Of a stretch of 64,000 bases of DNA, positions 19,509 through 46,332 are shown piece after piece. The notes beneath the pieces were generated by a model. That model saw nothing but the letters and a program-made list of their open reading frames with translations. It ran no database searches and was not told the DNA's origin. The first letter of the stretch is position 1. The number at the start of each line of letters is the position of its first letter. Origin of the DNA: Trypanosoma brucei (lineage: Eukaryota); contig CM000208.1 in the NCBI GenBank assembly GCA_000002445.1, positions 2,560,001 through 2,624,000 of the forward strand, read 5' to 3'. A program made the translations under genes and the position numbers.

Positions 19509-20966
19509 TCAAACAGGAGTAGGACTTGTCAACGGTACCGCAGTTGGAAATGTTTGACCTAATAGACTTCCAACATGACTCGAAACCTGTGACAGGTGGT
19601 AAACATTACACACCCCACGCCCCTCAATGACGGTTACCTGACCAACACCGCCACTCAAATCTCCCTTTTGAAGCGTTCCATAATTGGGAATCGAAGCTTG
19701 GGCCCCGCCCGCCCAAAGTGCCGGGTCAGTGCTGACCAACGCACTGCGCTCACTACTAACTGAAGAAGCGTAACGTAATTGCTCCTGTTCGGGGTACGCA
19801 GCAACGGGTAACAGGCGGCAGAACCAACGGGCTATGAAGTTTGCGTGGATGTGCTCACCGTCTGCGTCACCATCACCAAATACCTGATGAAGGTTCCCCT
19901 TGACACCGATATCAAAGGGGTTGACGGGAGGGCGAACACATATGCCTTGTTCGATCTGTGTCTGCTGGATGACGAGGTCAAGCGTCGTTAAATTCCGCCG
20001 AGCAAGTCCCCAGTGCTTCCTCAGCAACGAACCAGAAAGGATGAGAAAAATAAACGCCTCCAAAAAGCAGACGTACACTCCTAAGAACGGGGGACACACG
20101 CCGAATTCCTCAAAGAGACTCAGCTGCGCGACAGCCTGAGCGCTCACAACCAAATCTTTCGCGCGCAAGTGGGGGCGGTCCAGTGCCTCCGCCTCTGCCC
20201 AGCACTTTCTACTGTCCCAAGCCGGCATATCAACCCGGCGGTGCCTCACCTGGCCATTGACTGCCTCGTAGTGCTGCACGGCAAAAGAGCTACAGGCCAA
20301 AAGCAACAGGAGAACCACCCAAAGGGTACATAAAAATGTATAAAATATAACGAGAAGGTACAATTTGTAGTTGAAGAAGCCCACGCAGCGTCCGATCCAT
20401 GGGCAATGGTGATCGTACTTCAGTACGCAACGGCGGCATCGGCTACAGTGGTGTGCCCGCTGTGGCTTGTAGTGGGCACAAACGGGACAGTGATGTTGTG
20501 CTCCTGACACCTTGAGTGCGAGTGTGGCACTTTTGGGGGCACCCTTGTGGTATGCATACGGCACACGGCCGGGATCTGTCGTCGCCGCCGCCACATACGC
20601 CCACACAGTGAAACTGAAAAGCACTGCAGAAACTCCAAACAAACCCCAACTCCCAGCTGAAATACTAAGCAGGTGCTCTACATGCAAAGGGGTTGCAGAG
20701 GTCGGTTGCCGGATTCCCCTTATGAACGGCTGCAAAAACGCTTGTCCCAACGCATCGAGCAACCGAGGGAAAATGAACACGCAGAACGAGAAGATAGAGT
20801 ACGAAGTTAGTAAAAAAAGCGCGGGGAGAATAAAGGTTTCGGCACTGATACGCCGACCACAACACATACTACGTGTCTTCCGCGTCCTTTCCTCTGGGTG
20901 AAGGTAATAATAATGGCGATGTGGAAACGATGCGTGCCCTGCACGCCAGGGGACTGCGTCCGACAA
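19509..20966 (-). CDS. DHHC-type palmitoyl acyltransferase (zf-DHHC).
   Basis: Canonical DHHC Cys-rich domain: CPVCAHYKPQRAHHCSRCRRCVLKYDHHCPWIGRCVGFFNYKLY. It is flanked by hydrophobic TM segments. The ORF may start at an internal Met (MCCGRR..., codon 34) rather than at 20966. Confidence 0.8.
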   Translation of the reverse strand: MSDAVPWRAGHASFPHRHYYYLHPEERTRKTRSMCCGRRISAETFILPALFLLTSYSIFSFCVFIFPRLLDALGQAFLQPFIRGIRQPTSATPLHVEHLLSISAGSWGLFGVSAVLFSFTVWAYVAAATTDPGRVPYAYHKGAPKSATLALKVSGAQHHCPVCAHYKPQRAHHCSRCRRCVLKYDHHCPWIGRCVGFFNYKLYLLVIFYTFLCTLWVVLLLLLACSSFAVQHYEAVNGQVRHRRVDMPAWDSRKCWAEAEALDRPHLRAKDLVVSAQAVAQLSLFEEFGVCPPFLGVYVCFLEAFIFLILSGSLLRKHWGLARRNLTTLDLVIQQTQIEQGICVRPPVNPFDIGVKGNLHQVFGDGDADGEHIHANFIARWFCRLLPVAAYPEQEQLRYASSVSSERSALVSTDPALWAGGAQASIPNYGTLQKGDLSGGVGQVTVIEGRGVCNVYHLSQVSSHVGSLLGQTFPTAVPLTSPTPV

Positions 20967-21865: not shown

Positions 21866-22398
21866 AATGACGATAAACGCAAGGTGATGGCGTTCTCTGC
21901 CGCCAACTAACCACAAACCGTTACGCTTAAGGGGGTGGGCGCACACATACACACACCTCAGCCAGTGAGGTAAACGGGAAATCACTACGTGACACAACGC
22001 CAATGAGAGAAAGGGGAATAAGCCCTGAGGTACAGCTCGCCACTCGCGGTGCACTCGAGGGCGCTGACTCAACACCACACAATCTTTGAAACCGCCTCCT
22101 CCTAGACTACAGGAAAGACACCGCGCATACCGGTGGTACCAGCGCATAAATGTCCCCATATCACCAGCCACATAGTGACACGACTTTAAGGCTTGCTGAA
22201 AAATGCACCTAGCCAGCCTGACTGGGTGCTGTAATGAAAGTAACTAGGTAGCAATCTTTGCTGGAAATGAAATAGCACGCTCCTAGCAGACAGATGGAGA
22301 AAGCAAACAACATTATCCACAACATCGCAACCTTTCAACTTCCGCTCCGGCTCAGAAAAATGGTACCCTACATGCTTCGACATCAAAGGGCGAAACGA
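21866..22398. repeat. 533-bp dispersed repeat, copy A. It lies in the intergenic region between the DHHC and ADAT1 genes.
   Basis: ~99.4% identical (3 mismatches) to 38840-39372. This also explains the duplicated short ORFs 21815..22171/38825..39145 and 22186..22386/39160..39516. Confidence 0.9.
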
Positions 22399-22872: not shown

Positions 22873-24738
22873 TCATGCAACGCGTTGCTCCCGCTTTTCT
22901 ACCCAAAGCAACGGAAGTTTACGTCCTAGCCCCTCCTTCCACACCTCGTCAAGGACGGACTCTCCGGCACGCTGCGACCCCTGTAGCCAACAATGCACGG
23001 AGTCACCAGATGCGATGTTCCTCCCTATTTCCGCCATGTCACCAACCGACACAACCCGCTGAGGAATATAAAGCGAATAATTGCCAACTCGCCTAGTTTC
23101 GTGATCAGCTTCACCCTCCGTTGGAGGAAAGGCCTGTAACCTACGACAGCTTTGATGATATCTCCCCGAAACCGTCCGGGCAATTTCCCGCTGCCTTAAT
23201 GCCATCCACAACCTAGAGAGTGGAAACCGAGACGCTATCCCCTCCAGTAGCGCAGCGGTATCAGGGTCAGGAGGTTTTGCTCCCGAATATACGTCCGATT
23301 GAAGCTGAAGCAATTGTTGCACTGTGCGATTCATACTTTGCTTCGTTACGCCACGTGGAACACCAGCCTTGGTGTTCAACGCTGCGGTGCTCTCTTCGTT
23401 CCAGCGCAAAACGCACCGCACGACGAGGCCCTCAAGTTCCCCCCTACGCCTTTTCGCACCCGCGGAACAGGGAACAACTTGATTTCCATCCTCCACTGTG
23501 GCCCACGCAGCACGGGACCAGCATGATTCATCCTTTCTTTTGGGCGCACCACCGTTTCCCAGAGGGGTATCGTCCCCACTCATGCCCACCAGGATCAAAC
23601 GGAGGGCGGACGATTCAAAATCACAAACATCCACCTGCGGAAATGGCGAACCACCTCGCACAGGCTCGTTTGTTCCCTCAGAGGGAGCACCTAGTTCCCC
23701 AGGGCGAAGACGAGGACAAAAACAATGCAAGCGGCTATTTAGGCCCTCTCTTGCTTTCTCTAGAGGGGAAAACGCATTAACCGCTACACAGTTGTCACTA
23801 ACAATGCTAACCTTTCGCGGAAGCCACACCGCCGCCAGGCGGATGGGCTCCGGAAACAGTCGCGTTCGTCTTCGGCCCTGGATGCCCAAGCAGTGCCAGC
23901 GAAGCAATTTGTCCGAACACGACATGCAGAGGTTTTGCCGACCCTTCCCCGGTTTGACACGGGCTACGAACGGCATATCGTCCACCGGCCAGCACCGGTG
24001 AGCAGCTACCCGGTGGCCATAGCAAACGGTAAAGGAGCCGGGACCATCAAACACGCGAGCGTCCACAAACTCAGGTAGGGTCTTGCCATCGCAGCGAGAT
24101 ACATGCTCCTCTCCAACGAGCAAAGGGTTGCTATCCAATCCGCCGTCGAAAAGGGAACGGCCGCTAGGCGTACTCAGGAGCACATGAGCCCCGCCGAATG
24201 GGGTAGACATCGCACCGCAGGGATACTCTGTGCACACCAAGTGCACGCTCACGCCGGGCCGAAGACGGAAACACTCCCCCACTGCATCACAACTTGCGTC
24301 ACCGCCGGAGAACTGAGGAAAACAATGGTGACGCTCAACGGCAAAATGAAGTCGGTCGTCACCCCGTGAAAGATACGCTGCTGCATCCAGAAGGAATGCC
24401 ACGAGGCCACGCCGGGCCATAACCTCCGCGTGCCCGTCTCTCAGCATCAAATCGGCCTCAACAGTAAACTCCACTGGTTTGTAACCCACACAACGCGTCC
24501 CACTTCCCAACGAGACGCACACAAAACTAGGACCACTAATTTTATCACAGGGAGAGGCGCGGGGCAGTCCTAGCACAAACCCTGCTACCACCTCCCCCCT
24601 ACCATCCAGGGCACTAATTGCACTACAGTCCCAACCAAAACCACGCGGTTGAGAACGGAGGGCTATAGCAAATGCCTCAAGAGGAGTGGCACAACCCGGG
24701 AAACAGTCGTGAGGCACATCCACATGCATCCACTCCAA
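22873..24738 (-). CDS. tRNA-specific adenosine deaminase, ADAT1/ADAR-type (A_deamin domain).
   Basis: Deaminase zinc-ligand and catalytic motifs appear in canonical order: DGHAEV (His/Glu), EYPCG and CMSCSDKLLRWHCLGIQG (the SCSDK..RW signature of ADAR/ADAT1 deaminase domains). Confidence 0.65.
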   Translation of the reverse strand: MEWMHVDVPHDCFPGCATPLEAFAIALRSQPRGFGWDCSAISALDGRGEVVAGFVLGLPRASPCDKISGPSFVCVSLGSGTRCVGYKPVEFTVEADLMLRDGHAEVMARRGLVAFLLDAAAYLSRGDDRLHFAVERHHCFPQFSGGDASCDAVGECFRLRPGVSVHLVCTEYPCGAMSTPFGGAHVLLSTPSGRSLFDGGLDSNPLLVGEEHVSRCDGKTLPEFVDARVFDGPGSFTVCYGHRVAAHRCWPVDDMPFVARVKPGKGRQNLCMSCSDKLLRWHCLGIQGRRRTRLFPEPIRLAAVWLPRKVSIVSDNCVAVNAFSPLEKAREGLNSRLHCFCPRLRPGELGAPSEGTNEPVRGGSPFPQVDVCDFESSALRLILVGMSGDDTPLGNGGAPKRKDESCWSRAAWATVEDGNQVVPCSAGAKRRRGELEGLVVRCVLRWNEESTAALNTKAGVPRGVTKQSMNRTVQQLLQLQSDVYSGAKPPDPDTAALLEGIASRFPLSRLWMALRQREIARTVSGRYHQSCRRLQAFPPTEGEADHETRRVGNYSLYIPQRVVSVGDMAEIGRNIASGDSVHCWLQGSQRAGESVLDEVWKEGLGRKLPLLWVEKREQRVA

Positions 24739-31458: not shown

Positions 31459-34170
31459 TTATAGATAATGCATTGTTGTCCGCAAGTTGCCCCCCAGCGT
31501 TTTCAAATTGGTGAGCGCAGAATACTTACGCCCATACTCCGCTGCGCACTTCAGGGGGAGGGGTAGCGGAAGCGCATCGGTTTTGTTAGGATATAGAAAG
31601 CACATCCCGTACAGGAGAGCCTGTAGCTCTCCAAGATCGAATCCTTTCCGCTTGGAGACGACATACAGCGTAGAGCGGGCGTGACCAAGGGTGCAATTTG
31701 CGCCGGTGAGAAAGAATGCCTCACCAAATTTTTTGTCCGCACCTTCCGCTGTAACGAAACCGCGTGGGGCGTTGCAGTACATCGTGCGGTCATCAGGGGC
31801 TTGGAAAGCAAAGCGCGAGTGCTGATACCGCTGGCCAGCCACAACCGCCCAGCTGCTTCCCTTGAGCACCTCACTCAGGACGTCGACGTCACTCTTGCGG
31901 GCATCAAGCAATTCTCCCTCCGAGGCACAGCCACGCAGAACCAGGTACGCCGACACAGCATTTCCCTTGCTCGTGAAGTGGCTTTTTGCTTCTTGCACGA
32001 ACTCCCCCATCTTCTTAGATATCACCTCGGATGGAGTTGGGGGCCCCCCCTCAGACATCGATGTCGTGTCACAGTCGCTGCCGTCGGCATACAAGGTCTC
32101 CTTCCTGCCATTCACTTGATAATGGTTGCAGTAGGTCGACCACTGTGTGCCCTTCACGTAGAATGACACGAAAGCAACCGCGAAGAACTCCTGCCTGACG
32201 GCGGAAGACTCCGTTGCAACCGAGCGTTGATCCCTCCCAACATCGGCGGCTATTATTAATATTCCGCCGGATGGGTCAGCCTTCGCTAGCTTCGGACAAA
32301 CTTGGTTCACATCTAGGGTCCAATTGAGGCGACCGGTTTTTGCGCATATTTGTTGCGCAACGGCCATGACAATCGACAACTCACGACCTCCCGTTAGGTC
32401 CTTAGCCACGACTTGGCTAAGGGCACCGCCGCCCGACCATGATGCCTTCCACTCTGCATACGGCTCCCTCTCGGGTCGCCGCAGGAACGTCACACCAAAA
32501 ATGTTCTTCCCCAAGCGGCCCTTCGCCTCTTTCAAGCTTCGAACGGGGATGGAATCCCCGAAATTTAGTGGGGCGCTCATGCCATCAAGGTACTTCTTTA
32601 TATTACCGACGACAACAGTTCCCTGCTTGTTGTTTGTTTCGTCATACAATACGACGTCGACTGTCTGTCGCGCACCGGGGTGCCTAAGGTCTTTGAGCTC
32701 CTTCACGAAACCCTGTTGTGAGCTCTCGCTTTGAGGGTTCACTCGTCGAAAACCGTCACCCTTTGGTATCAATATTTCCGGGGACTTCAGCACCTGACCA
32801 TCCACGGAAACGAAATCCTTTCCAAAGGATATTCCGTACGCCTCCAAGAACTTCACGACCCTCCCCCCTTCGTGTTGGATTAGACGTTCAATGACACGCC
32901 TGAGGCGTTGAACACGATCATCAGGAAATATGGAGCACAGCTGCGGAAGTTGCCTTCGGTCTTGCTCATTCAAGGACATCTCGTGCAGCACCTGAGGTGG
33001 GACAAGCACCACCCGCCGCCCGTCGTTCGTCCGGCACTTAAAAAGTGCTTGCTGTGGCTCAATATGAATCCCGTACCGGTCGCGGAAATACTCCACATAT
33101 GTCTGTGACGGGTTTTGTTTGAGGCCCGCTGCATCGCAGGCCTTATTGTCCGTAATATCAAGGACGGTATACATAGTAGCACGGGATTTGTCCACCACAC
33201 TGTATACCTTTTTCTTAATGAAACGCTCGGCGAGCGCTCGTCGGATACTACCGCGTGCTCGCCTCCTTTCATCCTCCATCGCCGTCAAACAGTCCATGGC
33301 CGACGCCACGGGAAGGGAGACGTCCAGCTGCAGGACATCGTTTTCTTTGCCACGGATTACTGTCGAAAACGCCTTCACAGAAACTGCCTCAAATATAGAG
33401 ATGGTTCCTGTGGCATTTTTTTTTCCGTTTTTCAGGTCTACAAACTTTGTACCGACCTTTTCCTCATAACATTCCTGAACGGCACTACCGATCACGCAGT
33501 TCAACTCCATTGTCCTCTCTTTGGGGTTCAACGAACATGATGTCGCCTGCTTCAGCGTAAGCGTGTATGTGTATGTCACCGTTTTCCCCTTCCCTTTGCG
33601 CGCGTTCACGGTCAATTCGTAATTATATTCCTCCACGGGAAGTCTAGTGGGACATATTATCGATGACCCTGTGCAGACGCACATGTTGACGTCAAATGCG
33701 TCTTCGCTACCGCTTTCCTTTCTCATTTTCAACAACATATTCTTCGATGCGAGCACTTTAACCCTTTCCCTGAGGTCGGGTGCCCCATCTTTCATTTCAA
33801 TGGAAAGGGGGTAAATGAAGGCACATTTCCTCGGGTCGATGTACAGAGGGAGGAGGTTTGTCCATGCCTCCACTGGCCGGTCGTACATCCCGGCTTTCGC
33901 AAACGAAACCACCGCATCCCTCTCACGGGTCTGGCCAGTCCGATACGCCCCGTCACCAAAGCCTCCACCACGTCCACCACGGTATCCACCCTCGCCTCCA
34001 CCACGTCCACCACGGTATCCACCCTCGCCTCCACCACGTCCACCACGGTATCCACCCTCGCCTCCACCACGTCCACCACGGCGTCCACCCTCGCCTCCAC
34101 CACGTCCACCACGGCGTCCACCCTCGCCTCCACCACGTCCACCACGGTATCCACGTTCCCAGTCAGACAT
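31459..34170 (-). CDS. AGO1: Argonaute (PAZ/PIWI) protein with an N-terminal RGG-repeat domain. AGO1-like RNAi effector.
   Basis: The N-terminus has six 11-aa GGRGGGEGGYR repeats (33-bp DNA repeats). The C-terminal half has PIWI-like sequence (...LIIAADVGRDQRS..., ...RSTLYVVSKRKG..., ...PLPLKCAAEYGRKYSAL...). The 903-aa length and RGG+PAZ+PIWI layout match T. brucei AGO1 as I recall it. Confidence 0.75.
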   Translation of the reverse strand: MSDWERGYRGGRGGGEGGRRGGRGGGEGGRRGGRGGGEGGYRGGRGGGEGGYRGGRGGGEGGYRGGRGGGFGDGAYRTGQTRERDAVVSFAKAGMYDRPVEAWTNLLPLYIDPRKCAFIYPLSIEMKDGAPDLRERVKVLASKNMLLKMRKESGSEDAFDVNMCVCTGSSIICPTRLPVEEYNYELTVNARKGKGKTVTYTYTLTLKQATSCSLNPKERTMELNCVIGSAVQECYEEKVGTKFVDLKNGKKNATGTISIFEAVSVKAFSTVIRGKENDVLQLDVSLPVASAMDCLTAMEDERRRARGSIRRALAERFIKKKVYSVVDKSRATMYTVLDITDNKACDAAGLKQNPSQTYVEYFRDRYGIHIEPQQALFKCRTNDGRRVVLVPPQVLHEMSLNEQDRRQLPQLCSIFPDDRVQRLRRVIERLIQHEGGRVVKFLEAYGISFGKDFVSVDGQVLKSPEILIPKGDGFRRVNPQSESSQQGFVKELKDLRHPGARQTVDVVLYDETNNKQGTVVVGNIKKYLDGMSAPLNFGDSIPVRSLKEAKGRLGKNIFGVTFLRRPEREPYAEWKASWSGGGALSQVVAKDLTGGRELSIVMAVAQQICAKTGRLNWTLDVNQVCPKLAKADPSGGILIIAADVGRDQRSVATESSAVRQEFFAVAFVSFYVKGTQWSTYCNHYQVNGRKETLYADGSDCDTTSMSEGGPPTPSEVISKKMGEFVQEAKSHFTSKGNAVSAYLVLRGCASEGELLDARKSDVDVLSEVLKGSSWAVVAGQRYQHSRFAFQAPDDRTMYCNAPRGFVTAEGADKKFGEAFFLTGANCTLGHARSTLYVVSKRKGFDLGELQALLYGMCFLYPNKTDALPLPLPLKCAAEYGRKYSALTNLKTLGGNLRTTMHYL
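33957..34160 (-). repeat. 33-bp tandem repeat (x6) encoding the RGG domain of AGO1.
   Basis: The unit ctcgcctccaccacgtccaccacggtatccacc is repeated almost perfectly. Translation GGRGGGEGGYR. Confidence 0.9.
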
Positions 34171-37100
34171 TTTATTTAAATCCTTTTTATTAAGTTGCTT
34201 GTTTGCTTTTTTAGTTGATGACTGAAAGAGAACAAATAGTTTTTATCCTTTTCGCGTTCAACCTGATTACCCGTTCTGTGTTCAAACAAAAGAAAAGATC
34301 AGGTTGAAAGTTTTTTCTGGTAACTTTTTCCCAACAAATAATGAATACTGCTTTTTCATGCCGTTTTTTCCATAATTGATATCACATGTGAGTAACTCTT
34401 AACTGTATATGTCACTCGAACGTCGGGGTTGCTTACCCTATGAATGTGCGCGCTCTGTCGCCGAGTGCCATCATTTTGCTGCTACGAGTAAGTTTCCAGT
34501 CAGACAACATTACGAAAGTACTGCTCCTTCTCTTTGACTCTAACGTTGAGGCTTCTTCACAGACCCTCGTCTAAAATATCGTACACCTGAAACTACCGCA
34601 TGGGTGACCATATATAATACGAGTGTACAGTTGGCGCAAGAAAGAAATTACCACATAAACGTATCTTATTTCGTAAGACGTCGTTCTTCATAGTAATTAC
34701 TTACATGTCAGCCTTGCCATGCGTCAAAAACTGTGCATCCAACTTCTGTCGTCAACTTACCTTGTAATAAGGGTACCAATACATTGTATCCTTGTACAAT
34801 AAGGCCACTAAGTGCAGACCCAAGACTCGAATATGAATAATAAGGGATGAACAGAGCCTACCTGAGTATACTGAGGAACAGTAGCCTTCTAGAAAATACC
34901 TAGGTTACCGTAAAGGTATCAGCACGGCACTTCTATATTGTTCAGTCCAAATATATACCCCTATGACGTTATCACATCAAAGACACGCCCGACGGGGCGC
35001 TACACAGGGTCATCGTACTCATCTTTGAAGAGTGCTAATAACGTAAGTGTAAGGCAATAAACACGCACTTCACAATTATTGCGTGTTTAAACCACCAGTA
35101 TTCCCCGGTGTTTTCCCCGCCCTTCGTTGCCAGTGAATTGAAAGCAATTGTACTGCGTGCTGTTCCTATATTAGTATGTCATTATTGGGATAAGATCTTC
35201 ATAACGAAATCCAAACAATAAGCATTAGTACTCCCAAAACAGCATGCCGAACAAATTGTTAAGGAACAGAAAAGGTCGCATAAATAGTTTTCGAAAAATA
35301 ACAACAGCAATGATATGAAGCGACGTTATCAGTTACGGTGTAAATCTGTCAGTAACAGCTCAAGTGACCCCCGATTACTTGTGCGACGTATCCAACGCCA
35401 ATACTACGGTAACGTAATAGCTAAAATTATTGTGTTCACAACTTTTTCCACCTTTAGATGTTGTACTTGAATGCTTTCAACAATACCGAATAAAAGTATT
35501 TTGAACAACAGAAAAACAGTATAGATAACCATGTCATCGGAAGAGAAGCAGCGATAATCAGTAACAAAATGGACTTGCGACTCCTAACAGAACACTGCGG
35601 CTGGTTAACGGATCCAGTAGTTAAATCAATGCGGGGTACAACAAAGATTTCTTCTAACCACTAACACGATTGTAATGAAAAATAAACAAAAATGTTTCCA
35701 ACGAAAGATGTGAAAAGGAAAAATTCTCAATACCTAATAGGACCATTGAAACACAAGCTCACCATCAAATTCCACGGACTCATAATTCTTAGCATCATTA
35801 GAAGTGATCGATTACACCGTGGACAGCCTGGCAAACATGAAGGGAAAACTGTCCTCCATTCCTTTGTTCTGCCAACCCCCACCTGCCCACAAATACGAAT
35901 ACAACAAAAACCATTAACCGCACACCTCACCGGCGCAACCCGTATGATTCTCGTTGTGAAGAAAACCATCTTCCGCCAAAACAAAGTAACCGATCCCCCG
36001 TGACGGCCGCAAATTACGGGACCGTTTTATCAACTAATCAACCTACGCTTTCAAACAAAACACTCGTAAACAGCAATCACCAAAGCAGGCACTAATATAT
36101 ATATATATATATAGACAGCATGACAGGAGGTTATTAAAATGGCATCACAGTCTCACGAAGCCCTTTTAAGGGAGTGGACAAAAATATACGCATTGTGAGC
36201 CCCCTTTGCCACTAGTAATCCCACACTGCTAAAAAAGTGGAAAACAGTTCGTCACGAGTTGGAGGGAAAGGGGAATTGTCCTTCCCACATGCGTAGCCTA
36301 TACCGGCGACAAAACAATGGGGAGGAAGCAATGTCAAGTTTGTTTAAAACATCCACGGGGGACGTTGTAGCACCCACCCTAAAGGGAATACTGGTAACTA
36401 TGATTTAAAAAAACTCAAGAAGCACCAAGCAGTCACTGGTCACATGTAAATAGTAAGTTCCTAACCTTTTACACCGTATGTCCTCAGCAACCCAATGTCC
36501 CTTTAACAACAGTAAGGTAGAGAAAATCAATAACCAGACAGCTATTTATCATTTTACTTTTGAAAAAATGTGGAGATATGATAATAAGTTCACCAAATGA
36601 TTTAACTATAATTGATATTCCAGATTATTTTTAAATTTGACTCCCAAAGACTCGACTACATGGAGACACATATGTGCAAACGGGCAAATTCCGGGAGATG
36701 CAAACTTCTGTATAAATTTTTGTGATGATTGCTGTAACAATGCTGATGTTCGATGCTTGTGCTATCTCCCTTCGTTCATTTCCAGAGCACAGATCGCAGA
36801 CGGAATGTTCCCTTTATAAACGATACGTTGGCACTACAAGGTACCACAATGGAACATCAACAGGATACTGGTAAAAAACGCAAACGAAAAACGAAAAGTC
36901 ACGGTGGTACGCCCTCCCGTACAAGGCAAACTGGTAGGGGCCTTGAGCAGCCGTTTATACCGTGTATTTGAACCCACAAGCGTACATTGCTAAAATATTA
37001 ACAAGATTAAGCGTCAATGCGGTGAAATCCAGAACCCCTCACAAAGTTGAACCCAGCACTGTCGTAAAGTCCATGCCCTTCAATAAGCATTCATATATTT

Positions 37101-38839
37101 CATGGGCCACAGGGGAGTTAGGACAACAGCAGTCGGCACACAGCAATCAAAGCACGGGCTGTGACAGTGAAGAGAGTGATATACCTGGTGGATCGCATAC
37201 CATCCATGCAAAACGTGGCCTAGGCACAGGAATACTAGACAAAATAAAGCAAAGTTATAAAACTTGCCGGAAGTAGCACAGTGATAATGACAGTACACTC
37301 TCGGGGAAAATATTCACACCAGACAATTTGAAAGCGAACTCCAAGCAACAATGTTCTCATTACATAGATATCAGGCTGCGGGGGTGACATACCGGCAACG
37401 CAATTTTAAAAAAATAGAACAGATGAAAAATATTTAACAAACGACAAAAAACATACAGAAAACAAGTTTCCTATTTTGAGAATTAATATATTTCCCGTTC
37501 AAAACACGCAAAGCCAATTCCGAAAATGGAGCGGCAAAAAAAAAAAATGGAAAATACCTCTCAGGTATCCGGAGCCAAACCACGGCATGTACTCAGTATG
37601 TAAGATGCGTAAATAGCTTTACACGATCGAAATTTGGCAATGCTGTTGTTTTGACTCTATGTAGAAGCGGTCATGTCACAGCAACGGTCAAAAATACTCC
37701 GCGAAACCGATGACCACCAGAACCTCTAAGTGGATTCTGGAAAACAAAAACAAAATCGCCGATTTAAAATAAAAGATGCCCTTTTCGAAATTTTGTTCTA
37801 AAGGCTGCCTGTATCGAGTGAACGGATTTTGTGGCGAGGCTCTTCCCCTTTAGCAGTTCCTTCATAAGCACTCGCGTAGCAAATATCTTAACAGTAGAAT
37901 AATAATGCGTTACCTTCAGAAAGCACAGAAATACTTCATTACCGGGCTCAGAAGGAGATTGCAATTCCACTGAAACCCTTTAGCGGATCCGTAACAAAGA
38001 ATTCGGCGTCTTCCCCTACAACCCCAAAAACGATAACGCAGCACGCCACTATAGTTGCACACCCCCAAAAGGAAGGAAATGACTCTTTCTCCCAAATGAA
38101 TAGGGGAACATGGCTTTACCGGTAATATGCTTCCGAAAATACGGCAAACCAGCATAGACATTTGCTGACACAACACCTCACACAAGGGTAGTCATATGCT
38201 GCGCACCAAAGTGTGCCCCTATGCCGCGACGTTTTAGAATCTTAATTCACTCCGTGCGCACTTCGGTAGCTCAATATTCCAGTGTTTACTCTAAAACAGA
38301 GCTAGCTTCTACAGCAAAGCCAGTCTCCCGTCAGACAGCAAGAAGCCAGAGCAATGCGTTGACGAGAAAACGATGCAAATTTCCTTACACCGACCGATAG
38401 TTTTTTTCGGTAGGATAAAAAAAACTGGTAATATTAAATGGTTCCAGCTTATATTAATGCAGCCCTTCCAAGGCCTTCTCCAACTAAAATATATACAGCC
38501 AATTCTCAAAAAATAGGAGAGGAAACGCAGTGACTCCGTTACTTAACTGCGTATCGAGACGGCTGCGTTGATGGTATCGACAAATGGGTTAACGAAAACC
38601 CCACCACGAGCAACGATCAGCACCGTTGTCACAAACGAAGAATAGCAAAACACATTCATATGAAGAAACCCACGTATCCCACCCGGAACATTTGTCGAGG
38701 GGCAGAGCAACGATAAAACCAACTGTTAGTGACGCCTTGTGTAAAGTGGTTTCGTCATTGTGTTGAAAACAATAAACAGTTGGAAGAAACCAGTATATGA
38801 GAGCGGTAACGCACTCACGACGTATCAGCTAAATAGGGA

Positions 38840-39372
38840 AATGACGATAAACGCAAGGTGATGGCGTTCTCTGCCGCCAACTAACCACAAACCGTTACGC
38901 TTAAGGGGGTGGGCGCACACATACACACACCTCAGCCAGTGAGGTAAACGGGAAATCACTACGTGACACAACGCCAATGAGAGAAAGGGGAATAAGCCCT
39001 GAGGTACAGCTCGCCACTCGCGGTGCACTCGAGGGCGCTGACTTAACACCACACAATCTTTGAAACCGCCTCCTCCTAGACTACAGGAAAGATACCGCGC
39101 ATACCGGTGGTACCAGCGCATAAATGTCCCCATATCACCAGCCACATAGTGACACGACTTTAAGGTTTGCTGAAAAATGCACCTAGCCAGCCTGACTGGG
39201 TGCTGTAATGAAAGTAACTAGGTAGCAATCTTTGCTGGAAATGAAATAGCACGCTCCTAGCAGACAGATGGAGAAAGCAAACAACATTATCCACAACATC
39301 GCAACCTTTCAACTTCCGCTCCGGCTCAGAAAAATGGTACCCTACATGCTTCGACATCAAAGGGCGAAACGA
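38840..39372. repeat. 533-bp dispersed repeat, copy B. It lies inside the 12-kb gene-free region.
   Basis: Same orientation as copy A, which is 17 kb away. The flanking sequence is unrelated. No poly(A) tail or target-site duplication is evident. Confidence 0.9.
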
Positions 39373-41281
39373 CGTACGCCACGCGGCGCAGTCGGCAAGA
39401 GAATCTTTGGCGCTACCCCGCAGCCCCTCGCCACTCTGGAACCTTCGCAGCGCCGTGCTAAGTGGAAGTGCACTGGCAGGCCCCTTTCCCCCCTCTCGGG
39501 GATCAAGCACCAACAAGTGGAAGGAGGTCGGCAGCCCGCACTCCGCCCCCCACCCCTCTCCCTCGTGCAGGCACTTGGAACGCTTACTGAACTATGCCGT
39601 TGCCCTCCTGTTAAGAGTGGGGTGGTCTTTCAACCAATTCAACGTTCACCACCTTCCCACACCCCAGAGGGTATTAGGTGCGAAGATCAGCCGATACCAG
39701 CCGCGCCGCCAAGTGGCACACGTGTCAGCTATGTTTTCCGGACTGATTTCGTTCCTTTTGCGTTCGTTTTTGGTGTTTGACTCTTCGACTTGTAGAAAGG
39801 CCTCTTACGTAGCAGGATCCCTCCGCACACCCGGTGGTCGCGGAACACAGGCACAACGTCTCTGCCGCAGATCCCAAAGGCGATAATTTTCTGATTTATC
39901 ACTTTGTCAACGCGCCCTGTTTGTCTGCAAATGGACACGCACTCGTACCGACACTTTGAGCATCCCCCTAGTTCTCAGTACTATTTCCTCCGAGAAAGGA
40001 TAACTATGAATGCTTCTGCCGCGGTTAGTTTGTGGCTGGTCTCCACGTTGCTGGCCTTTGGCAAGGAGTGTTAGCCCCCTCTTGACCCAGCCACGAACCC
40101 ACAATGCACACCCTGCGCTAGGCTTGGTTATGCACCTACGCTTGCGTCGAAAGGACCCTTGTGTGCCACTGTGCGGGAGCTGTATGTTTCGTTGTTTGTG
40201 GCTTATCTACTCCTATGTTGTCTTTTGGCTGGGTCAATCCGCATTTGGATTGCATTGCTTTACCGTTAGTGACGGGGTCTTTCTTTGGCCGCATTTTCAT
40301 CCAAGAAAATCCGAATTTGACTGCATTTTCCTCCGCGAGACCCACTGAGCCATTTCTTTCAGTCAGAAAGAGTTTTTGACTACGGCGCTTCGTCAGCACG
40401 CGAAAGTTGACGCCACACCAGCCCTTTCCGCCCGTGGAACAAACAATGTGCGGACCCCACATCCCAGGGATGTTCCACCCGTTGTTCTTCGAATAATTGA
40501 GTGCCTCTGGACTCCGATTGTTCTGGCGCTACGGAGGGATCGGTCACCAAGTTGGCGCATGTCATTACTAAGTGGCGTATGGGATGGTGTTGCCTCGGCG
40601 TTCCCTCGTCGGCTCCACCGGCTGCTGAGTGGCAAGGCTGAACTACGGCCCGCCTGCTAACTTTGCGGGCCGATCTTATCAAGTATGCCCATTTCGAAGC
40701 GTTTCTCTTGCCGCCTTCGGGAATCGAGCAGAGTCATATGAAGGCGTCCGCACCTGCGCTGCGGGGTGGTTCCGTTCAGCATTTGTTTGTGGGGACACTT
40801 ATCCTCTTTTCCATTTCGGCCACCTCTTCCCCCGTAGAGAGGGACTGCTGGCGACGTCCTGCCCGACGTCCTGCCCGACGTCCTGCACCCCATCGTTTCA
40901 CTTCTAATAATAGTTACAAAAGTGTGTGTCTGTACGGCAGTGCATATTTCTCCAGTCCCCAATCGCTTCGGTTGCTTTTACTCTTCTGAAGCACGGTTCA
41001 GAGGCGGTTGCTCAGTGCACTTCCATGGAAATAGCGCGCACAGACAGGATATCAGTTGTTTGTCTGAGCTGACGCGGGCATGAAACAGTATCATGCGGTG
41101 CCTTTTGACGGTAGTGACCAAATGTGTCAAGGCCAGCCTCGGGGAATCGTTTTGCTGTTCCTGTTGTGGCTCCTACTTTCCGTGGGGAGGGTAAGCGGAA
41201 GCGAACGTGTCAGTTCAAGGAATTGGAGAAGGTGCACTGTTACGCGGACAAATTCACGTCCGGGAATACTCCAACTAACAA

Positions 41282-41381
<100 letters not shown>

Positions 41382-43415
41382 CTAACCCTTTTTCCCCCTG
41401 CCATGTGCCACACTGACAAAAGGGAGGGAGGGGAACTGTTAAACGGCAACCTTGACTAGGTTTAAGCCCCGAATTTCGCGTCGCCTATTCGCTACGCGCG
41501 ACTACTGTGTGTGTTAGAATTATCGTATTCTTTGTTCATTAATTACTTTTTTTTTTCTGCCTGTGTGTAGAGGATTTTTCGTGCGTTATGAGGGACGGTT
41601 CAGTGAAATGCACTTTCGATTGTTCTGTCGTCGCCGACATTTTTGTCTTCATCGGTGAGGTGTTTTTACCTAATTGGTTGCCCTACTGGTTCCTATATAA
41701 TGCGATGCCGCCCATGAAATATTGTGCTCTTTTCATATTTTTTTAACGTTAATCTTTTGCGACCTTTGCGAAGAACAAGAGCAACTTCTAATGGTAAACA
41801 GAACGATTCCACAACAAAGAAAAGGAAATACAAATAGGCGTAAAAGTTTGATTTCTGTAAGAGAACCAAAAAAAAACACAGAAAGAAAAGGGTGTAAAAA
41901 CAACTGATGTAAGAAAGAGAGAGAAATCTGCAGCAAGTACTGAGGGGGGTAATGGGGGAAAAAACGGAGACGACGCGCCGGCATTTCGAACCTCCTTTGA
42001 GTTTGCGGTTGCTTACGTGTGTGTGTGTGTGTCCCGTTTGCCTACACTCCCCGCCCCCGGGTGCGTAAATAAGGCGACCCCCCCCCCGTCCCTACATCAG
42101 CGAACTGCGCAGGAAGAACCCATGTATATACTTCTCCTCCTTACTGGTTGTGGATGAAAGGATCGTCACCTCTCAGGTTTGCATTGCGCAAGATCGTACC
42201 AGCTTGACGCCTTTCCGAGTGTGCATTGCATGTGCCAAATTACCCTTACGGTGCGGACCGTCGCGTTTGGGGCGAGATTCCTGTAGGCGTCTTGTGAAAA
42301 AGCTGGCCCCGTCCAAGTGTTCGACGGCGCGTCCCGTAATACGACAAATGTGAACAGAAGGGAAGGCTACCGGTAGTGGCCGGGTTCGTGAACCATTAGG
42401 AGTCGTTCCTGAAAATGGCGCGCCAGCGCAGCAACCCATTCACTAGAGGTTTGGATGAATGAAGAACTCTACCTGTACAGGGGTTGTGGATTTAGTGTGT
42501 GACAACATAACTCTCCAACGGCAGTTGACACATAAAACTCAGTTCCTCGTAAATGGCAGCTGCGCAAGGTGCTCCCCTTAATTCGCCGCTTGTGTGATGC
42601 GCTTTGCGGCATCAAACCAATAATGGGGGGAAATGTATTTTCCGTCCTGTATATGGACCCGTTTTTAAGTAAGGATGAACTTTTTAAGGTGCGAAACACC
42701 GGCGTAAATTTCCTCTCTATGACTCCAACATCCTCCAAGCTTCCTCGGATCACTTGGTGTGGGAGCATGGCCCCTAACCTCTTTGCAAAGCTCGGCCAAA
42801 ATGTATGGCCTTGCGTTGCTTCATCTCCGGATGATTCGTGTAAAAAGAAATCTGCGTGTCTTCTATAGGGTTGAAATCAGTTAATCTCCTTGATTCGTGT
42901 CCAGGCGTACGTGTGTGTGTGTGGATTAAAAGCGGCTGTTCATGCGTATGCTTTTTCTTTTTCAAATTAAGGAAGAAAGGGGAAGACATTTTTTAAAACC
43001 ACGCGGAGAAGCGGTGAAATACTAGAAAAAGGCTCCTCCGTTCCACAAAAGTTTGTTGCATATTTTAATGCAATCAGAAAACTGGTGTATCAGTGGTGTG
43101 GAAATCAACCATCAGCATTCCAAACCAAAGATCCGCATCCTTGCAAGTTGTGGTGCCGATTTTGACGCAGCATTCCATCGGACTGCCTTTTTTCTTTTCC
43201 TAACGCACCACTTACCAATTTCCAAAGGTAAAAAAACCACAAAAAATCAAATGGCTGCTAAAAGGGCTTTAACTCCGACTTGTTTGCTTTATCGTGGCAA
43301 AACACGAACAAGCAACACGGTGTCAGTCATCGGAAAGGTGTTGCCAGCGACGGCGCCACTCCGACAGAAACGAAGCAGTAGCGGCTCGTTAGGCAGAGAC
43401 GCTCTGGCGCTCGGT

Positions 43416-43488
43416 TCCTCCCTGGCGCAGTCGGCAGCGCGTTAGGCTGTTAACCTACAGGTCGTTGGTTCGAATCCAACGGGAGGAG
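43416..43488 (+). tRNA. tRNA-Asn (anticodon GTT)
   Basis: Hand-folded cloverleaf. Acceptor TCCTCCC pairs with GGGAGGA. D-arm GCGC/AGTCGGCA/GCGC. Anticodon stem TTAGG/CCTAC around loop CTGTTAA. T-arm GTTGG/TTCGAAT/CCAAC. Discriminator G. Followed by a TTTTT Pol III terminator. Confidence 0.8.
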
Positions 43489-43556
43489 TCTTTTTGCTGC
43501 CCACCTCCGAAAATTCTGGAGGTCACTTTCGCTATAAAGGAAGAACTGAAGCTGTT

Positions 43557-43628
43557 GCAAAAACAGTGGACGAGTAGGGGTTTGAACCCTAGGCCTCCTG
43601 TATGCAAAACAGGCGCTCTACCACTGAG
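43557..43628 (-). tRNA. tRNA-Ala (anticodon TGC)
   Basis: The revcomp reads GGGCGTGTAGCTCAGTGGTAGAGCGCCTGTTTTGCATACAGGAGGCCTAGGGTTCAAACCCCTACTCGTCCA. It has a G3:U70 Ala identity pair, anticodon loop TTTGCAT, and a T-loop TTCAAAC. A downstream TTTTT terminator lies on the minus strand. Confidence 0.85.
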
Positions 43629-43740
43629 CTACACGCCCTTCAACACGGCTAAATCCGTAATATCACATGAGGTTGTTTAGCAACCGTTGTGTACCATCAC
43701 GTAAAGTGGTGTGCTGTGATTGGCGAGAGGGCGTGGCGGT

Positions 43741-43813
43741 GCTCCAGTGGCCTAATGGATATGGCTTTGGACTTCTAATCCAAAGGTTGCGGGTTCGAGT
43801 CCCGTCTGGAGTA
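43741..43813 (+). tRNA. tRNA-Arg (anticodon TCT)
   Basis: Acceptor GCTCCAG pairs with CTGGAGT (G1:U72). D-arm GCCT/AATGGATA. Anticodon stem TTGGA/TCCAA with loop CTTCTAA. T-arm GCGGG/TTCGAGT/CCCGT. TTTT terminator downstream. Confidence 0.75.
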
Positions 43814-43871
43814 CGTTTTCGTGTCCAAAATTATTTCATATTTGTTCGTTTCTAGTTGTTTGCCGGAGAGC

Positions 43872-43943
43872 AGCCTTCCTAGCTCAGTGGTAGAGCGCAC
43901 GGCTTTTAACCGTGTGGTCGTGGGTTCGATCCCCACGGAAGGC
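43872..43943 (+). tRNA. tRNA-Lys (anticodon TTT)
   Basis: GCCTTCCTAGCTCAGTGGTAGAGCGCACGGCTTTTAACCGTGTGGTCGTGGGTTCGATCCCCACGGAAGGCG. Perfect 7-bp acceptor. Anticodon stem CACGG/CCGTG with loop CTTTTAA. T-loop TTCGATC. T-run downstream. Confidence 0.85.
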
Positions 43944-44029
43944 GCTTTTCTACACTGCCGCTTAAGCTAATTTCTTTGCTGGGTACGACATGTAAGCGTT
44001 AGAGGCTTGCTTGGAGGAGGGTTGGCGGT

Positions 44030-44102
44030 GCCCCCGTAGCCCAATGGATAAGGCGTTCGCTTCCTAAGCGAAAGATTGCGGGTTCGAGTCCCGCCGGAGG
44101 TA
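44030..44102 (+). tRNA. tRNA-Arg (anticodon CCT). One acceptor-stem mismatch (C4:A69), so it may be a variant or pseudo-tRNA.
   Basis: GCCCCCGTAGCCCAATGGATAAGGCGTTCGCTTCCTAAGCGAAAGATTGCGGGTTCGAGTCCCGCCGGAGGTA. Anticodon stem TTCGC/GCGAA with loop TTCCTAA. T-arm GCGGG/TTCGAGT/CCCGC. TTTT downstream. Confidence 0.65.
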
Positions 44103-46332
44103 GTTTTCCGGTGCAAAAACTTGCGGATATATGAGATGGTCGCGCGAACGTGGCAGAAGCCGCAGCGGCGTTTGGATTTGGCGGGTCCTTTTTGCGGTGA
44201 ATGCTTGCGGGTTCATAAAACATCCGCGTTGAACCCCGTTTACGCGTGTCGAGGCCGGGGCATACAAATATGACGCCACTTCTTTGGCGCGGCTCCTCGA
44301 GGCTTGGTTGGTTACGCAAGCTCCCAAGCCCGCGGCGATTCGTTGGAAATTTGAGGAGAGGCCCCGATGTGTTCGGCGCTGGCGTTGAGGCCATTGCGAC
44401 GGAAGCTCTACCGGATTTTTGTGTTAAAGGCGCCACAAGTCCGCAAAACCCACTTCACCCTCTGTCGATGCGTTGTTGCGCCAACCAGGGTGGCACAGGG
44501 TGGAGTGGGGGGGGGGGGGGAGAAAAAGATAACCTGTTTTTCGGCGTGTGGCCACACAGTCATGGAGTTTCTTGTACTCAAGCCACGCTTTGCCTTATGA
44601 ATTCTTTCTTTAGGCCCTTGGTTTGTACGATGTCCACTGGCAGGGACAGGGGTTGAAGAAGTCACAACCATAGGAGATGACGACGGTTATTATCATTATT
44701 ATTATTATTTTTTTTTTTTGCGGGGGGCTTTGAAGCGCAGAGACACACACCAATGAGCACGTGTATGCGGTTTCCCCCAAAACTTTCCCCATCCGAGTGT
44801 GTTGCTCCGACGGATTGCCTTACATTACTGAAATTCACGACCGTAAGGGTGAGTCCCAGCCGGCTTCAGCGGCCGCACTGGGGGAGGGGGGAGAGATTAA
44901 GTTGGTCGGGTTTTCTCTTTCCACGCCATCGGCAAACAGCAAAATGGGCAACAGGGGTTAGGATACTCTGCAGAGACGGATCGTACGGGAAAGAGGGGGG
45001 TGACACATTTGCCTTCTAATTCAACACTTGACAATGGCTACGGGAAATTGGGACCATTTTGATCCTCTTGTTCCGCCGAACAACAAAACCAGAAATAACT
45101 ACCCGTTGCCACCTTCAGCGGCTACATATATATATATATTTATGTAAATTTATATGAAGCACACACCGCAGCAACCGGGGCTGTGCCGCTCGGTTGCCCA
45201 TCCACTTTTTTGTGCGTGGGCAACTGGGAAATGGAAGGGAAGGGAGGGGAAGGGTGATGTGTGGAGGAGAGCTCAGGGGATGCCATTCCTTCATCCATCA
45301 AGGGGACTGATGTAATATTTGAAAATGTTACGCGAACCTTCCCACGGCTGCCTCCTAACCTTCCGCCACGTTCTCATCTGCCATAGGCAAATGAAGGTTG
45401 CGGAGCCAAACGAGCGGGGCAGTGCCCTTTACGTAGTCTTTTATCTTGAGCAGACGGAACCGGAGGACGGGAAGGGAACCGTTACACGCGGGACGCGTAG
45501 TTGTGTGCCACAGGCCGTCATTGCCGTTGATATCATCTGCTCCATCTCGGCCATTCCATGTCTAGCCATCAGAGACGACCCCGACCCTCTCTCCACGCGC
45601 TTCTCACTTGCGAGACAAATGACACCGTTTCAAGCTTCTTAGCTATTCACATGGTTCCGATACAGGGGTGCCGAGCCGACTCTCCTCCTCTTTCCGCCGT
45701 GGCCCAAGTTTCGTATCACTTCCATCGAAGTACATGGGTTCGCACTTCGGCCTCGCGTGGATAAATGCCTCTCTCGTCTTAAAAAAAAAAAGAATTGCTT
45801 TGTTTCCTCTCCCCGCGGAAGCGAATATGGGGTGTCCCTTGCTTCGTCATGCAACCTCCTTGACAGGCGGCGGTTCTTTCAAGCTTTACTCTTCGCAAGG
45901 GGGAAAACGTACATGATGATATGATCATTCAAGGACGCAAGAAAAAAGGGGACACCCACACATATACGTATATATACATATTTTTGTACATGTGTCAGCG
46001 CATCTGCATATCATGTCTTGTGGTAAAAACGATGTGCTACAGCTGTTGGGCCTTCCCTGCGAGGAGGAAGTGTACGCTCGTAATTTCAACCCCTCATTTG
46101 TCTACTGAGCACGCACTCATGAGAGGAATGGAAGGAAAGGGGGGGGGGGGGAAAGTAAAACTATGAGGCGCACGGCACATACACGCAGGAGTAGAAATAA
46201 CGGCCACACGTTTATGCTTGACGTCGTCACTGCGACAATACCGTCAGCTTTGGGCCAGCAGAAAAACAACACTCCTTCACCACGCGTGTCCACTTTAACC
46301 GCGGCAAAAAAAGTTCTGCACCTGTTGATGGG

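What the first reader, a model, noticed from the sequence alone, without database searches (positions are those of the whole stretch)
21866..22398. 533-bp dispersed repeat, ~99% identical in two intergenic sites 17 kb apart
The copies at 21866-22398 and 38840-39372 differ by only 3 substitutions, and both lie in the same orientation in non-coding spacers. Such identity implies recent duplication, gene conversion, or a functional or mobile element. It lacks a poly(A) tail and target-site duplications, which argues against a RIME/ingi retroposon. It carries only short, unrecognisable ORFs. It could be a non-autonomous repeat, a small-RNA (for example snoRNA) cassette processed from the array transcript, or an assembly-level duplication.
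Basis: seen in the sequence. Interest (0 to 1): 0.6.

Follow-up and report, generated by a model that had tools for sequence, protein, structure and literature searches.

The report
Two-copy non-coding spacer repeat, homogenised
A 533-bp stretch of non-coding spacer DNA sits twice, 17 kb apart, on Trypanosoma brucei chromosome 10; the copies appear to stay nearly identical by copying from each other, they carry an RNA splice-acceptor signal that is used in cells, and nothing else suggests a special function.

Summary
Window 21866-22398 and 38840-39372 are 533-bp direct repeats with 3 C/T differences, sharp edges and unrelated flanks.

The window is T. brucei TREU927 chromosome 10 (v4 coordinate = window + 2,560,000). 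Copy A lies between an ADAT1-like gene and a DHHC gene. Copy B lies 4.7 kb upstream of AGO1, at the head of a transcription unit that starts next to a tRNA cluster.

It is not an assembly artefact. Both sites are occupied in three other Trypanozoon assemblies, one of them PacBio.

- **No retroposon signs:** there is no poly(A), no target-site duplication and no Pr77 hallmark (the positive control worked).
- **No snoRNA signs:** there is no Rfam hit and no C box.
- **No structure, coding or constraint signal:** folding is no more stable than shuffled sequence. Variants are mostly non-synonymous. Tb927-gambiense divergence inside the unit (1.5-1.7%) is at least that of neighbouring spacers (0.74%).
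- **Gene conversion between the sites:** the copies are closer within a genome (0-3 differences) than between subspecies (8-9). The same two 4-SNP haplotypes occur at both sites.
- **One functional part:** a polypyrimidine tract plus AG. Kolev et al. 2010 place the spliced-leader 5' end of transcript Tb10.NT.124 there, but their reads cannot tell A from B.

Genome-wide copy number could not be measured. Ordinary; low interest.

The parts
21866..22398 (-). Repeat copy A (533 bp). It starts 474 nt downstream of the ADAT1-like stop codon and ends 998 nt upstream of the DHHC start codon. The transcribed strand is minus.
   Evidence: flanking genes
38840..39372 (-). Repeat copy B (533 bp), 4669 nt upstream of the AGO1 start codon, inside the 9-kb ORF-poor stretch between the tRNA cluster and AGO1.
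39235..39284 (-). Polypyrimidine tract (39284->39259, ttgtttgctttctccatctgtctgct) followed by AG dinucleotides. The AG at 39236-39235 immediately precedes the mapped 5' end of Tb10.NT.124 at 39234.
   Evidence: sequence; Kolev 2010 Table S7
22261..22310 (-). The identical polypyrimidine tract and AG in copy A (AG at 22262-22261, putative exon start at 22260), 612 nt downstream of the ADAT1-like stop codon. Use of this site in vivo is not resolved.
   Evidence: sequence; read-mapping caveat
37330..39234 (-). Tb10.NT.124, a novel spliced and polyadenylated transcript of 1904 nt at 0.2 RNA per cell in procyclic cells. Its first 395 nt are unit sequence.
   Evidence: Kolev 2010 Table S7; coordinate offset checked
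34317..37262 (-). Tb10.NT.123 (37262->35595) and Tb10.NT.122 (35473->34317), further low-coding transcripts that tile the AGO1 upstream region.
43415..44103 (.). Cluster of five tRNA genes that separates two minus-strand transcription units. Kolev 2010 Table S14 classes the AGO1 unit as starting 'next to tRNA'.
39268..39780 (+). Tb10.329.0010 / EAN78476, 170 aa, 'hypothetical protein, unlikely'. Its first 35 codons are unit sequence, it is antisense to the transcription unit, and no transcript was detected.
22873..24729 (-). ADAT1-like adenosine deaminase gene, upstream neighbour of copy A.
31459..34170 (-). AGO1 (Tb10.406.0020 / Tb927.10.10850), the first gene of the transcription unit downstream of copy B.

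Best explanation
The unit is a low-copy dispersed duplication of ordinary transcription-unit spacer DNA. It has been found so far only in the T. brucei group. A 533-bp piece was copied at the DNA level from one spacer into another 17 kb away on the same strand; this step is inferred, probably templated repair of a break. Since then the two copies have repeatedly corrected each other by non-allelic gene conversion. That, and not selection on the sequence, is why they are 99-100% identical within a genome. The only functional content shown is a polypyrimidine tract plus AG that acts as a spliced-leader acceptor. In copy B it would be the first processing site of the AGO1 transcription unit and would give the 5' end of the rare non-coding transcript Tb10.NT.124. 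In copy A the same signal lies in the ADAT1-like/DHHC spacer. Shown here: the repeat itself, its presence in independent assemblies, the concerted-evolution pattern, the absence of retroposon, snoRNA and coding signatures, and a mapped acceptor site in the unit. Inferred: the duplication mechanism, its direction, and the lack of any further function.
For: Both sites are occupied in DAL972, TeAp (PacBio) and OVI, plus a Logan contig for site A. In gambiense A equals B (0 differences), yet both differ from Tb927 at 8-9 sites. Tb927 A and B differ at 3 sites. At unit positions 409/413/432/449 the haplotypes ACGT and GTAC both occur at site A (Tb927 and TeAp versus gambiense and Logan) and at site B (Tb927 and OVI versus gambiense and TeAp). 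Tb927-gambiense divergence is 1.50 and 1.69 per 100 bp in the unit against 0.74 pooled over 8.1 kb of other spacer, so constraint is not detectable. Fold z-scores are -0.18 and +0.42. No meaningful Rfam hit was found and there is no C box. The Pr77 profile finds nothing, while the control hit has E=7.9e-13. Haplotype differences in the internal ORFs are mostly non-synonymous. ORF-based searches find only the two gambiense 'unlikely' ORFs at sites A and B. The start of Tb10.NT.124 (2599234 = window 39234) follows an AG after a polypyrimidine tract inside copy B. Base composition of the unit matches minus-strand spacer.
Against: Genome-wide copy number could not be measured because no T. brucei genome is searchable here. 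A third, more diverged copy is not excluded, and the cluster of 4 substitutions in 41 bp could even hint at one. Power to detect purifying selection is low at about 1% divergence. The gambiense copies being identical could partly reflect consensus calling in a Sanger assembly scaffolded on Tb927. The spliced-leader reads of Kolev 2010 (28 nt aligned, multi-mappers placed pseudo-randomly) cannot say which copy is spliced. T. congolense, the most informative outgroup, could not be fetched.
Confidence: 0.68

Rival explanations
1. The unit is a functional non-coding module kept in two places by selection. It could be the 5' exon of a lineage-specific long non-coding RNA, a 3'UTR or processing regulatory element, or a precursor of a small RNA not yet in Rfam.
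For: The unit contains an acceptor site that is used and forms the first 395 nt of Tb10.NT.124. Both copies lie in the sense orientation of their transcription unit. Neighbouring Tb10.NT.122 behaves as polysome-associated. Identity is high in every strain examined.
Against: Divergence between subspecies is not reduced relative to spacers. Folding gives no structural signal. There is no Rfam match and no C box. There are no homologues in the syntenic T. vivax or T. cruzi spacers. Tb10.NT.124 is very rare, at 0.2 RNA per cell. The supplementary files of the siRNA-locus survey that were held as text have no entry for this region. Gene conversion alone explains the identity.
Confidence: 0.14
2. 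The unit is a non-autonomous mobile element: a degenerate RIME, SIDER or DIRE-type retroposon, or an unknown DNA element, that inserted at both sites.
For: Its size is similar to RIME and SIDER2 (about 500-550 bp). The edges are sharp and the flanks unrelated. It lies in spacers, where SIDERs typically lie.
Against: There is no poly(A) or A-rich end, no target-site duplication and no terminal inverted repeats. No Pr77 hallmark is found anywhere in or near the unit, although the same profile finds one in T. cruzi L005. Only two copies are detectable through ORF clusters. There is no similarity to anything else in 64 kb.
Confidence: 0.05
3. The duplication is simply very recent and has had no exchange between copies. 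The identity reflects young age only.
For: There are only 3 differences in Tb927, and no homologue is found outside the T. brucei group.
Against: Both sites were already occupied in the common ancestor of brucei, gambiense and equiperdum. Within-genome differences (0-3, or 4 in TeAp) are fewer than between-subspecies differences (8-9). The same two haplotypes segregate at both sites, which a single duplication cannot produce.
Confidence: 0.1
4. The second copy is an assembly artefact, a collapsed or mis-joined contig in TREU927.
For: The locus-tag prefix changes from Tb10.406 to Tb10.329 between AGO1 and the ORF that overlaps copy B. From my own knowledge these prefixes mark original contig names, so a contig boundary probably lies nearby. 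The OVI short-read assembly breaks at copy A.
Against: Independent assemblies, including a long-read one, carry both copies with both unique flanks and copy-specific SNPs. The OVI contigs end 32 bp into copy A from each side, which shows that both junctions are real.
Confidence: 0.01

Closest known systems
Concerted evolution by gene conversion in T. brucei duplicated sequences (Jackson 2007, BMC Evol Biol, PMC1855330)
   Same: Paralogues look more alike within a genome than orthologues between subspecies. Variation and homogenisation coexist. Non-coding parts can be as homogeneous as coding parts.
   Different: That survey concerns tandem gene arrays. [quoted passage not shown] Here the two copies are non-tandem, 17 kb apart, purely non-coding and only 533 bp long.
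RIME / ingi / SIDER / DIRE non-LTR retroposons of trypanosomatids
   Same: The length is about 0.5 kb, the location is in spacers or 3'UTR regions, and more than one copy exists.
   Different: There is no Pr77 5' hallmark, no poly(A) tail and no target-site duplication. Only two copies are detectable.
Trypanosomatid snoRNA gene clusters
   Same: Both are repeated non-coding units of several hundred bp embedded in Pol II transcription units and processed from the polycistronic precursor.
   Different: There is no Rfam snoRNA match at E<=10, no C box and no tandem arrangement. Complementarity to rRNA could not be tested.
Intergenic trans-splicing and polyadenylation signal regions of trypanosome transcription units
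   Same: A polypyrimidine tract followed by AG lies upstream of a mapped spliced-leader addition site.
   Different: Such signals are normally unique spacer sequence. Here the whole signal region is duplicated verbatim at a second locus.
Direct repeats that flank genes and mediate amplification or deletion in Leishmania (Ubeda et al. 2014, recalled from memory, not checked here)
   Same: Two direct repeats of about 0.5 kb bracket a 17-kb block of genes, which includes AGO1.
   Different: No recombinant junction, circle or copy-number change was seen or could be looked for. The phenomenon is not described for the T. brucei core genome.

Membership tests
RIME/ingi/SIDER/DIRE retroposons | Pr77 (77-79 nt) hallmark at the 5' end | tested here: not met
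   An nhmmer profile of 5 published Pr77 consensus sequences gave a best window hit of E=15, with nothing in or near either copy. The same profile hit T. cruzi L005 9604-9683 at E=7.9e-13.
RIME/ingi/SIDER/DIRE retroposons | 3' poly(A) or A-rich tail and flanking target-site duplication | tested here: not met
   The ends read AATGACG... and ...GAAACGA. The flanks of A and B share no direct repeat.
RIME/ingi/SIDER/DIRE retroposons | Many dispersed copies in the genome | not testable with these tools
   No T. brucei genome can be searched here. Indirect evidence: ORFs within the unit cluster only with the two gambiense ORFs at sites A and B.
C/D or H/ACA-like snoRNA cluster | Match to a curated snoRNA covariance model | tested here: not met
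   Rfam at gathering threshold finds only tRNAs. At E<=10 only chance-level hits appear (E of 2-7, far below the gathering scores).
C/D or H/ACA-like snoRNA cluster | C box RUGAUGA (with a D box CUGA) | tested here: not met
   None of the 28 RTGATGA matches in the window falls in either copy, on either strand.
C/D or H/ACA-like snoRNA cluster | Guide complementarity to rRNA; a small stable RNA product | not testable with these tools
   No T. brucei rRNA sequence or small-RNA-seq data are available here. The supplements of the small-RNP RNA-seq paper are not held.
Paralogues under concerted evolution (non-allelic gene conversion) | Paralogues more alike within a genome than orthologues between genomes, with conserved flanks proving orthology of the sites | tested here: met
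   Gambiense A versus B shows 0 differences and Tb927 A versus B shows 3. Tb927 versus gambiense shows 8-9 differences at each site. The flanks are collinear at 99% identity.
Paralogues under concerted evolution (non-allelic gene conversion) | Polymorphism shared between the paralogous sites | tested here: met
   The haplotypes ACGT and GTAC at unit positions 409/413/432/449 are each found at both site A and site B in different strains.
Trans-splice acceptor region | Polypyrimidine tract followed by AG, with spliced-leader reads mapping just downstream | tested here: met
   The tract runs 39284->39259 and the AG lies at 39236-39235. Tb10.NT.124 starts at 2599234, which is window 39234. Caveat: the reads cannot distinguish copy A from copy B.
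Assembly artefact | Second copy absent from independent assemblies | tested here: not met
   Both copies are present with unique flanks in DAL972 and TeAp (PacBio). In OVI, copy B is complete and both junctions of copy A are present.
Protein-coding gene or small ORF | Homologues, or an excess of synonymous change | tested here: not met
   phmmer against 1.84 billion representatives finds only the T. brucei cluster itself. In the 65-aa ORF, 3 of the 4 haplotype differences change the amino acid; in the 114-aa ORF, 2 of 5 do. The 114-aa ORF is rich in Cys, Trp, His and Arg.

The most novel reading that the evidence does not exclude
The two direct copies are more than passive duplicates. One reading is that they serve as recombination substrates bracketing the 17-kb block that carries AGO1, an hnRNP-like RNA-binding protein gene and ADAT1-like. 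This would allow occasional excision, loss or amplification of the RNAi Argonaute locus, as direct repeats do in Leishmania. A second reading is that the unit is a T. brucei-specific processing or long non-coding RNA module placed at the head of the AGO1 transcription unit and reused in a second spacer, with gene conversion maintained because both copies matter.
Probability: 0.06. Interest if true: 0.6.

Novelty: new member of a known kind. Interest (0 to 1): 0.22.

Why it matters
The biological importance is modest. The case is a clean, small example of ectopic (non-tandem) gene conversion in the T. brucei core genome, where concerted evolution has been described mainly for tandem arrays.

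It also has a practical consequence. The 5' end of the published transcript Tb10.NT.124, and any short-read signal over the unit, is ambiguous between two loci. Short-read assemblies also break there.

If the repeats ever recombined, the product would delete or amplify the AGO1 block, but nothing here shows that this happens.

Tried and rejected
- **Plexin/PSI homologue search:** it returned only the query's own cluster because the word index saturated, so the search was wasted.
- **T. congolense ADAT1 look-up:** not on record, so the closest outgroup could not be examined.
- **Pfam on six-frame translations of 34-43 kb:** It was replaced by tblastn and tblastx against T. cruzi and T. vivax genes and spacers, which found only microsatellite matches and no pseudogene relic.
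- **Exact look-up of the internal 65-aa ORF:** intended to find further sites; nothing is on record.
- **Supplements of four papers:** Siegel 2010, Nilsson 2010, Michaeli 2012 and the siRNA-locus paper either held no files or had no entry for this region.
- **Older, larger duplication:** tested by aligning the flanks against shuffles and rejected.
- **Retroposed mRNA copy:** rejected. The unit extends 138 nt upstream of the acceptor site and has no spliced leader or tail.
- **Promoter reading:** rejected. Copy A lies in the middle of a transcription unit with no internal start listed.
- **Direction of copying:** left open. Unit base composition is nearer to the flanks of site A, but this is too weak to decide.

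Full report
**Observation.** They differ at three positions (unit positions 205, 254 and 327; C in A, T in B), which gives 99.44% identity in direct orientation. Word-7 BLAST of the two neighbourhoods finds nothing else in common apart from (CA)n microsatellites. Smith-Waterman scores of 60-600 bp flanks on either side do not exceed shuffled controls. The unit therefore has sharp edges and unrelated flanks. Neither end carries an A/T run, and no direct or inverted terminal repeats are present.

**Where this is.** Eight ORFs of the window are exact matches to proteins of Trypanosoma brucei brucei TREU927 chromosome 10, EAN78466-78481. All genes lie on the minus strand. A cluster of five tRNA genes sits at 43415-44103.

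The gene at 31459-34170 is AGO1, Tb10.406.0020 / Tb927.10.10850. Copy A lies between an ADAT1-like deaminase gene (22873-24729) and a DHHC gene (19509-20867). Copy B lies 4.7 kb upstream of AGO1, in a 9-kb stretch without credible ORFs.

The supplementary tables of Kolev et al. 2010 (PMC2936537) fix the offset: v4 chromosome coordinate = window + 2,560,000. Tb10.329.0010 at 2599268-2599780 equals the window ORF 39268-39780. The poly(A)-site table also fits the stop codons of Tb10.406.0050 and Tb10.406.0060.

**Not an assembly artefact.** Loci were fetched around the gene that lies between the two copies, from three other Trypanozoon assemblies. All of them carry the unit.
- T. b. gambiense DAL972 has both copies.
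- T. b. equiperdum TeAp (a PacBio assembly, with homopolymer indels) has both copies.
- T. equiperdum OVI has copy B in full.

In OVI, one contig ends 32 bp into copy A from the upstream side and another starts 32 bp into it from the downstream side. Both junctions therefore exist, and the short-read assembler simply broke there. A Logan contig from another T. brucei run also carries copy A.

**Concerted evolution.** In gambiense the two copies are identical to each other, yet both differ from the Tb927 copies at 8-9 positions. In Tb927 the copies differ at 3 positions.

Four linked sites (unit positions 409, 413, 432 and 449) exist as two haplotypes, ACGT and GTAC. Each haplotype is found at both sites.
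- At site A, Tb927 and TeAp carry ACGT, while gambiense and the Logan strain carry GTAC.
- At site B, Tb927 and OVI carry ACGT, while gambiense and TeAp carry GTAC.

One duplication followed by independent divergence cannot give this pattern. Sequence exchange between the two sites can.

Divergence between Tb927 and gambiense inside the unit is 1.50 and 1.69 substitutions per 100 bp. The pooled value over 8.1 kb of other spacer in the same alignments is 0.74, and in CDS it is 0.3-1.0. The identity of the copies is thus not due to detectable purifying selection.

Jackson (2007) described concerted evolution as pervasive in T. brucei tandem arrays, but largely limited to them, with ectopic conversion rare. 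This case is a small non-tandem, non-coding example.

**What the unit is not.**
- **Known RNA family:** Rfam at gathering threshold finds only the tRNAs. At E<=10 the unit gives only chance-level hits, and the whole 34-46 kb region gives nothing relevant.
- **C/D snoRNA:** no RUGAUGA C box lies in either copy on either strand.
- **Structured RNA:** folding energies are indistinguishable from shuffles on both strands, with z-scores of -0.18 and +0.42.
- **Retroposon:** a profile built from five published Pr77 hallmark consensus sequences finds nothing in the window (best E=15). The same profile detects a hallmark in the T. cruzi locus at E=7.9e-13. With the lack of a tail and of target-site duplication, this excludes RIME, ingi, SIDER and DIRE membership on the features that could be tested.
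- **Coding sequence:** the internal ORFs (65 and about 100-114 aa) are annotated 'hypothetical, unlikely' in gambiense. Their strain differences are mostly non-synonymous. They have no relatives beyond their own T. brucei cluster in either protein search.
- **Conserved element:** the syntenic ADAT1-DHHC spacers of T. vivax and T. cruzi show no DNA or translated similarity to the unit.

**What it does contain.** Kolev et al. list AGO1 as the first gene of a minus-strand transcription unit whose start is 'next to tRNA' (Table S14). They also list three novel spliced, polyadenylated transcripts that tile the AGO1 upstream region.
- Tb10.NT.124 runs from 2599234 to 2597330 (1904 nt, 0.2 RNA per cell).
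- Tb10.NT.123 and Tb10.NT.122 follow it. NT.122 has a longest ORF of 32 aa and was seen on polysomes.

The start of NT.124 is window 39234, inside copy B. It is preceded by AG at 39236-39235 and by a pyrimidine-rich tract at 39284-39259. The unit therefore carries a spliced-leader acceptor, and in copy B this would be the first processing site of the transcription unit.

The plus-strand AT skew also turns to the sign typical of minus-strand transcription units just at copy B. Copy A has the identical signal, with AG at 22262-22261, 612 nt after the ADAT1-like stop codon.

One caveat matters. Kolev et al. aligned 28 nt of each spliced-leader read and placed multi-mapping reads pseudo-randomly. 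The nearest A/B difference is 68 nt from the junction. The data therefore show that the acceptor is used in at least one copy, but not which one.

**Mechanism.** The best-supported reading has three parts. First, a DNA-level duplication moved a 533-bp piece of spacer from one site to the other. The mechanism and direction are inferred, and unit composition is slightly closer to the flanks of site A. Second, recurrent non-allelic gene conversion has kept the copies alike; the pattern is shown, the process is inferred. Third, a trans-splice acceptor came along as incidental functional content. I give this reading 0.68.

The rivals are as follows.
- A selected non-coding module or small-RNA precursor: 0.14.
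- A young duplication without exchange between copies: 0.10.
- A mobile element: 0.05.
- An assembly artefact: 0.01.

**Limits.** No T. brucei genome or T. congolense sequence could be searched, so copy number rests on indirect ORF-cluster evidence. The four clustered substitutions in 41 bp could reflect a conversion tract from an unseen third copy. Identity of the two gambiense copies might be inflated by consensus calling.

**Verdict.** The feature is real, but it is an ordinary low-copy repeat. It is not described as such in the papers I could search. Its practical consequence is ambiguous read mapping and breaks in short-read assemblies.

Noticed in passing
window 50491-50631 and 53250-53390: A second dispersed repeat of 141 bp at 97% identity with 2759-bp spacing. 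Each copy lies just upstream of the start of one of two adjacent ABC-F-type ORFs (48389-50443 and 50999-53113, both minus strand). It is probably the shared 5' region of a tandem gene pair.
   Followed up: no
window 39248-39288 (unit positions 409-449), and 22274-22314 in copy A: Four of the roughly nine substitution sites seen among strains cluster within 41 bp, inside and next to the polypyrimidine tract, as two fully linked haplotypes (ACGT and GTAC). Pyrimidine content is preserved. The cluster could be a conversion patch from an unseen diverged copy or a multi-nucleotide event.
   Followed up: partly
window 41283-41379: A perfect (CA)48 microsatellite, which reads (GT)48 on the sense strand, lies between the tRNA cluster and copy B in the putative transcription start region. 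GT-rich elements have been linked to Pol II initiation in T. brucei; this link is recalled from the literature and was not checked here.
   Followed up: no
window 39500-41000 versus 34500-39500: Plus-strand AT skew is negative upstream of copy B and positive downstream of it. GC content drops from about 54% to about 41%. Copy B therefore sits at a compositional boundary at the head of the AGO1 transcription unit.
   Followed up: partly
window 34000-34154 (AGO1 5' coding end): A 33-bp tandem repeat array (4.7 copies, 96% matches) encodes the Arg/Gly-rich N-terminus of AGO1. AGO1 length differs among strains (903, 914, 892 and 881 aa), which suggests repeat-number polymorphism.
   Followed up: no
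L003 18285-18316 and L007 1-32 (T. equiperdum OVI contigs CZPT02001073 and CZPT02001685): Two contigs of the OVI assembly end exactly 32 bp into copy A, one from each side. This looks like a k-mer-length overlap typical of a de Bruijn graph break at a repeat. Copy B was assembled through.
   Followed up: yes
L005 9604-9683 (T. cruzi, minus strand): A full-length Pr77 retroposon hallmark (E=7.9e-13) lies just upstream of the T. cruzi ADAT1-like gene. In that species it indicates an L1Tc, NARTc or DIRE-type element in the syntenic region.
   Followed up: no
L005 7742-9079, 12160-13131 and 13132-18930: T. cruzi has extra genes in the region syntenic to the window: a GST/glutaredoxin-domain gene upstream of its ADAT1-like gene, and a 323-aa ORF plus a 5.8-kb gap between ADAT1-like and DHHC. 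None has a counterpart in the T. brucei window.
   Followed up: partly
window 34317-35473: Tb10.NT.122, immediately upstream of AGO1, was reported by Kolev et al. 2010 to co-sediment with polysomes although its longest ORF is 32 aa.
   Followed up: no
window 27091-27306: An imperfect repeat of about 30-bp period lies within the hnRNP-like RNA-binding protein gene (Tb10.406.0050, 26434-27396), which encodes a Gly-rich low-complexity region.
   Followed up: no
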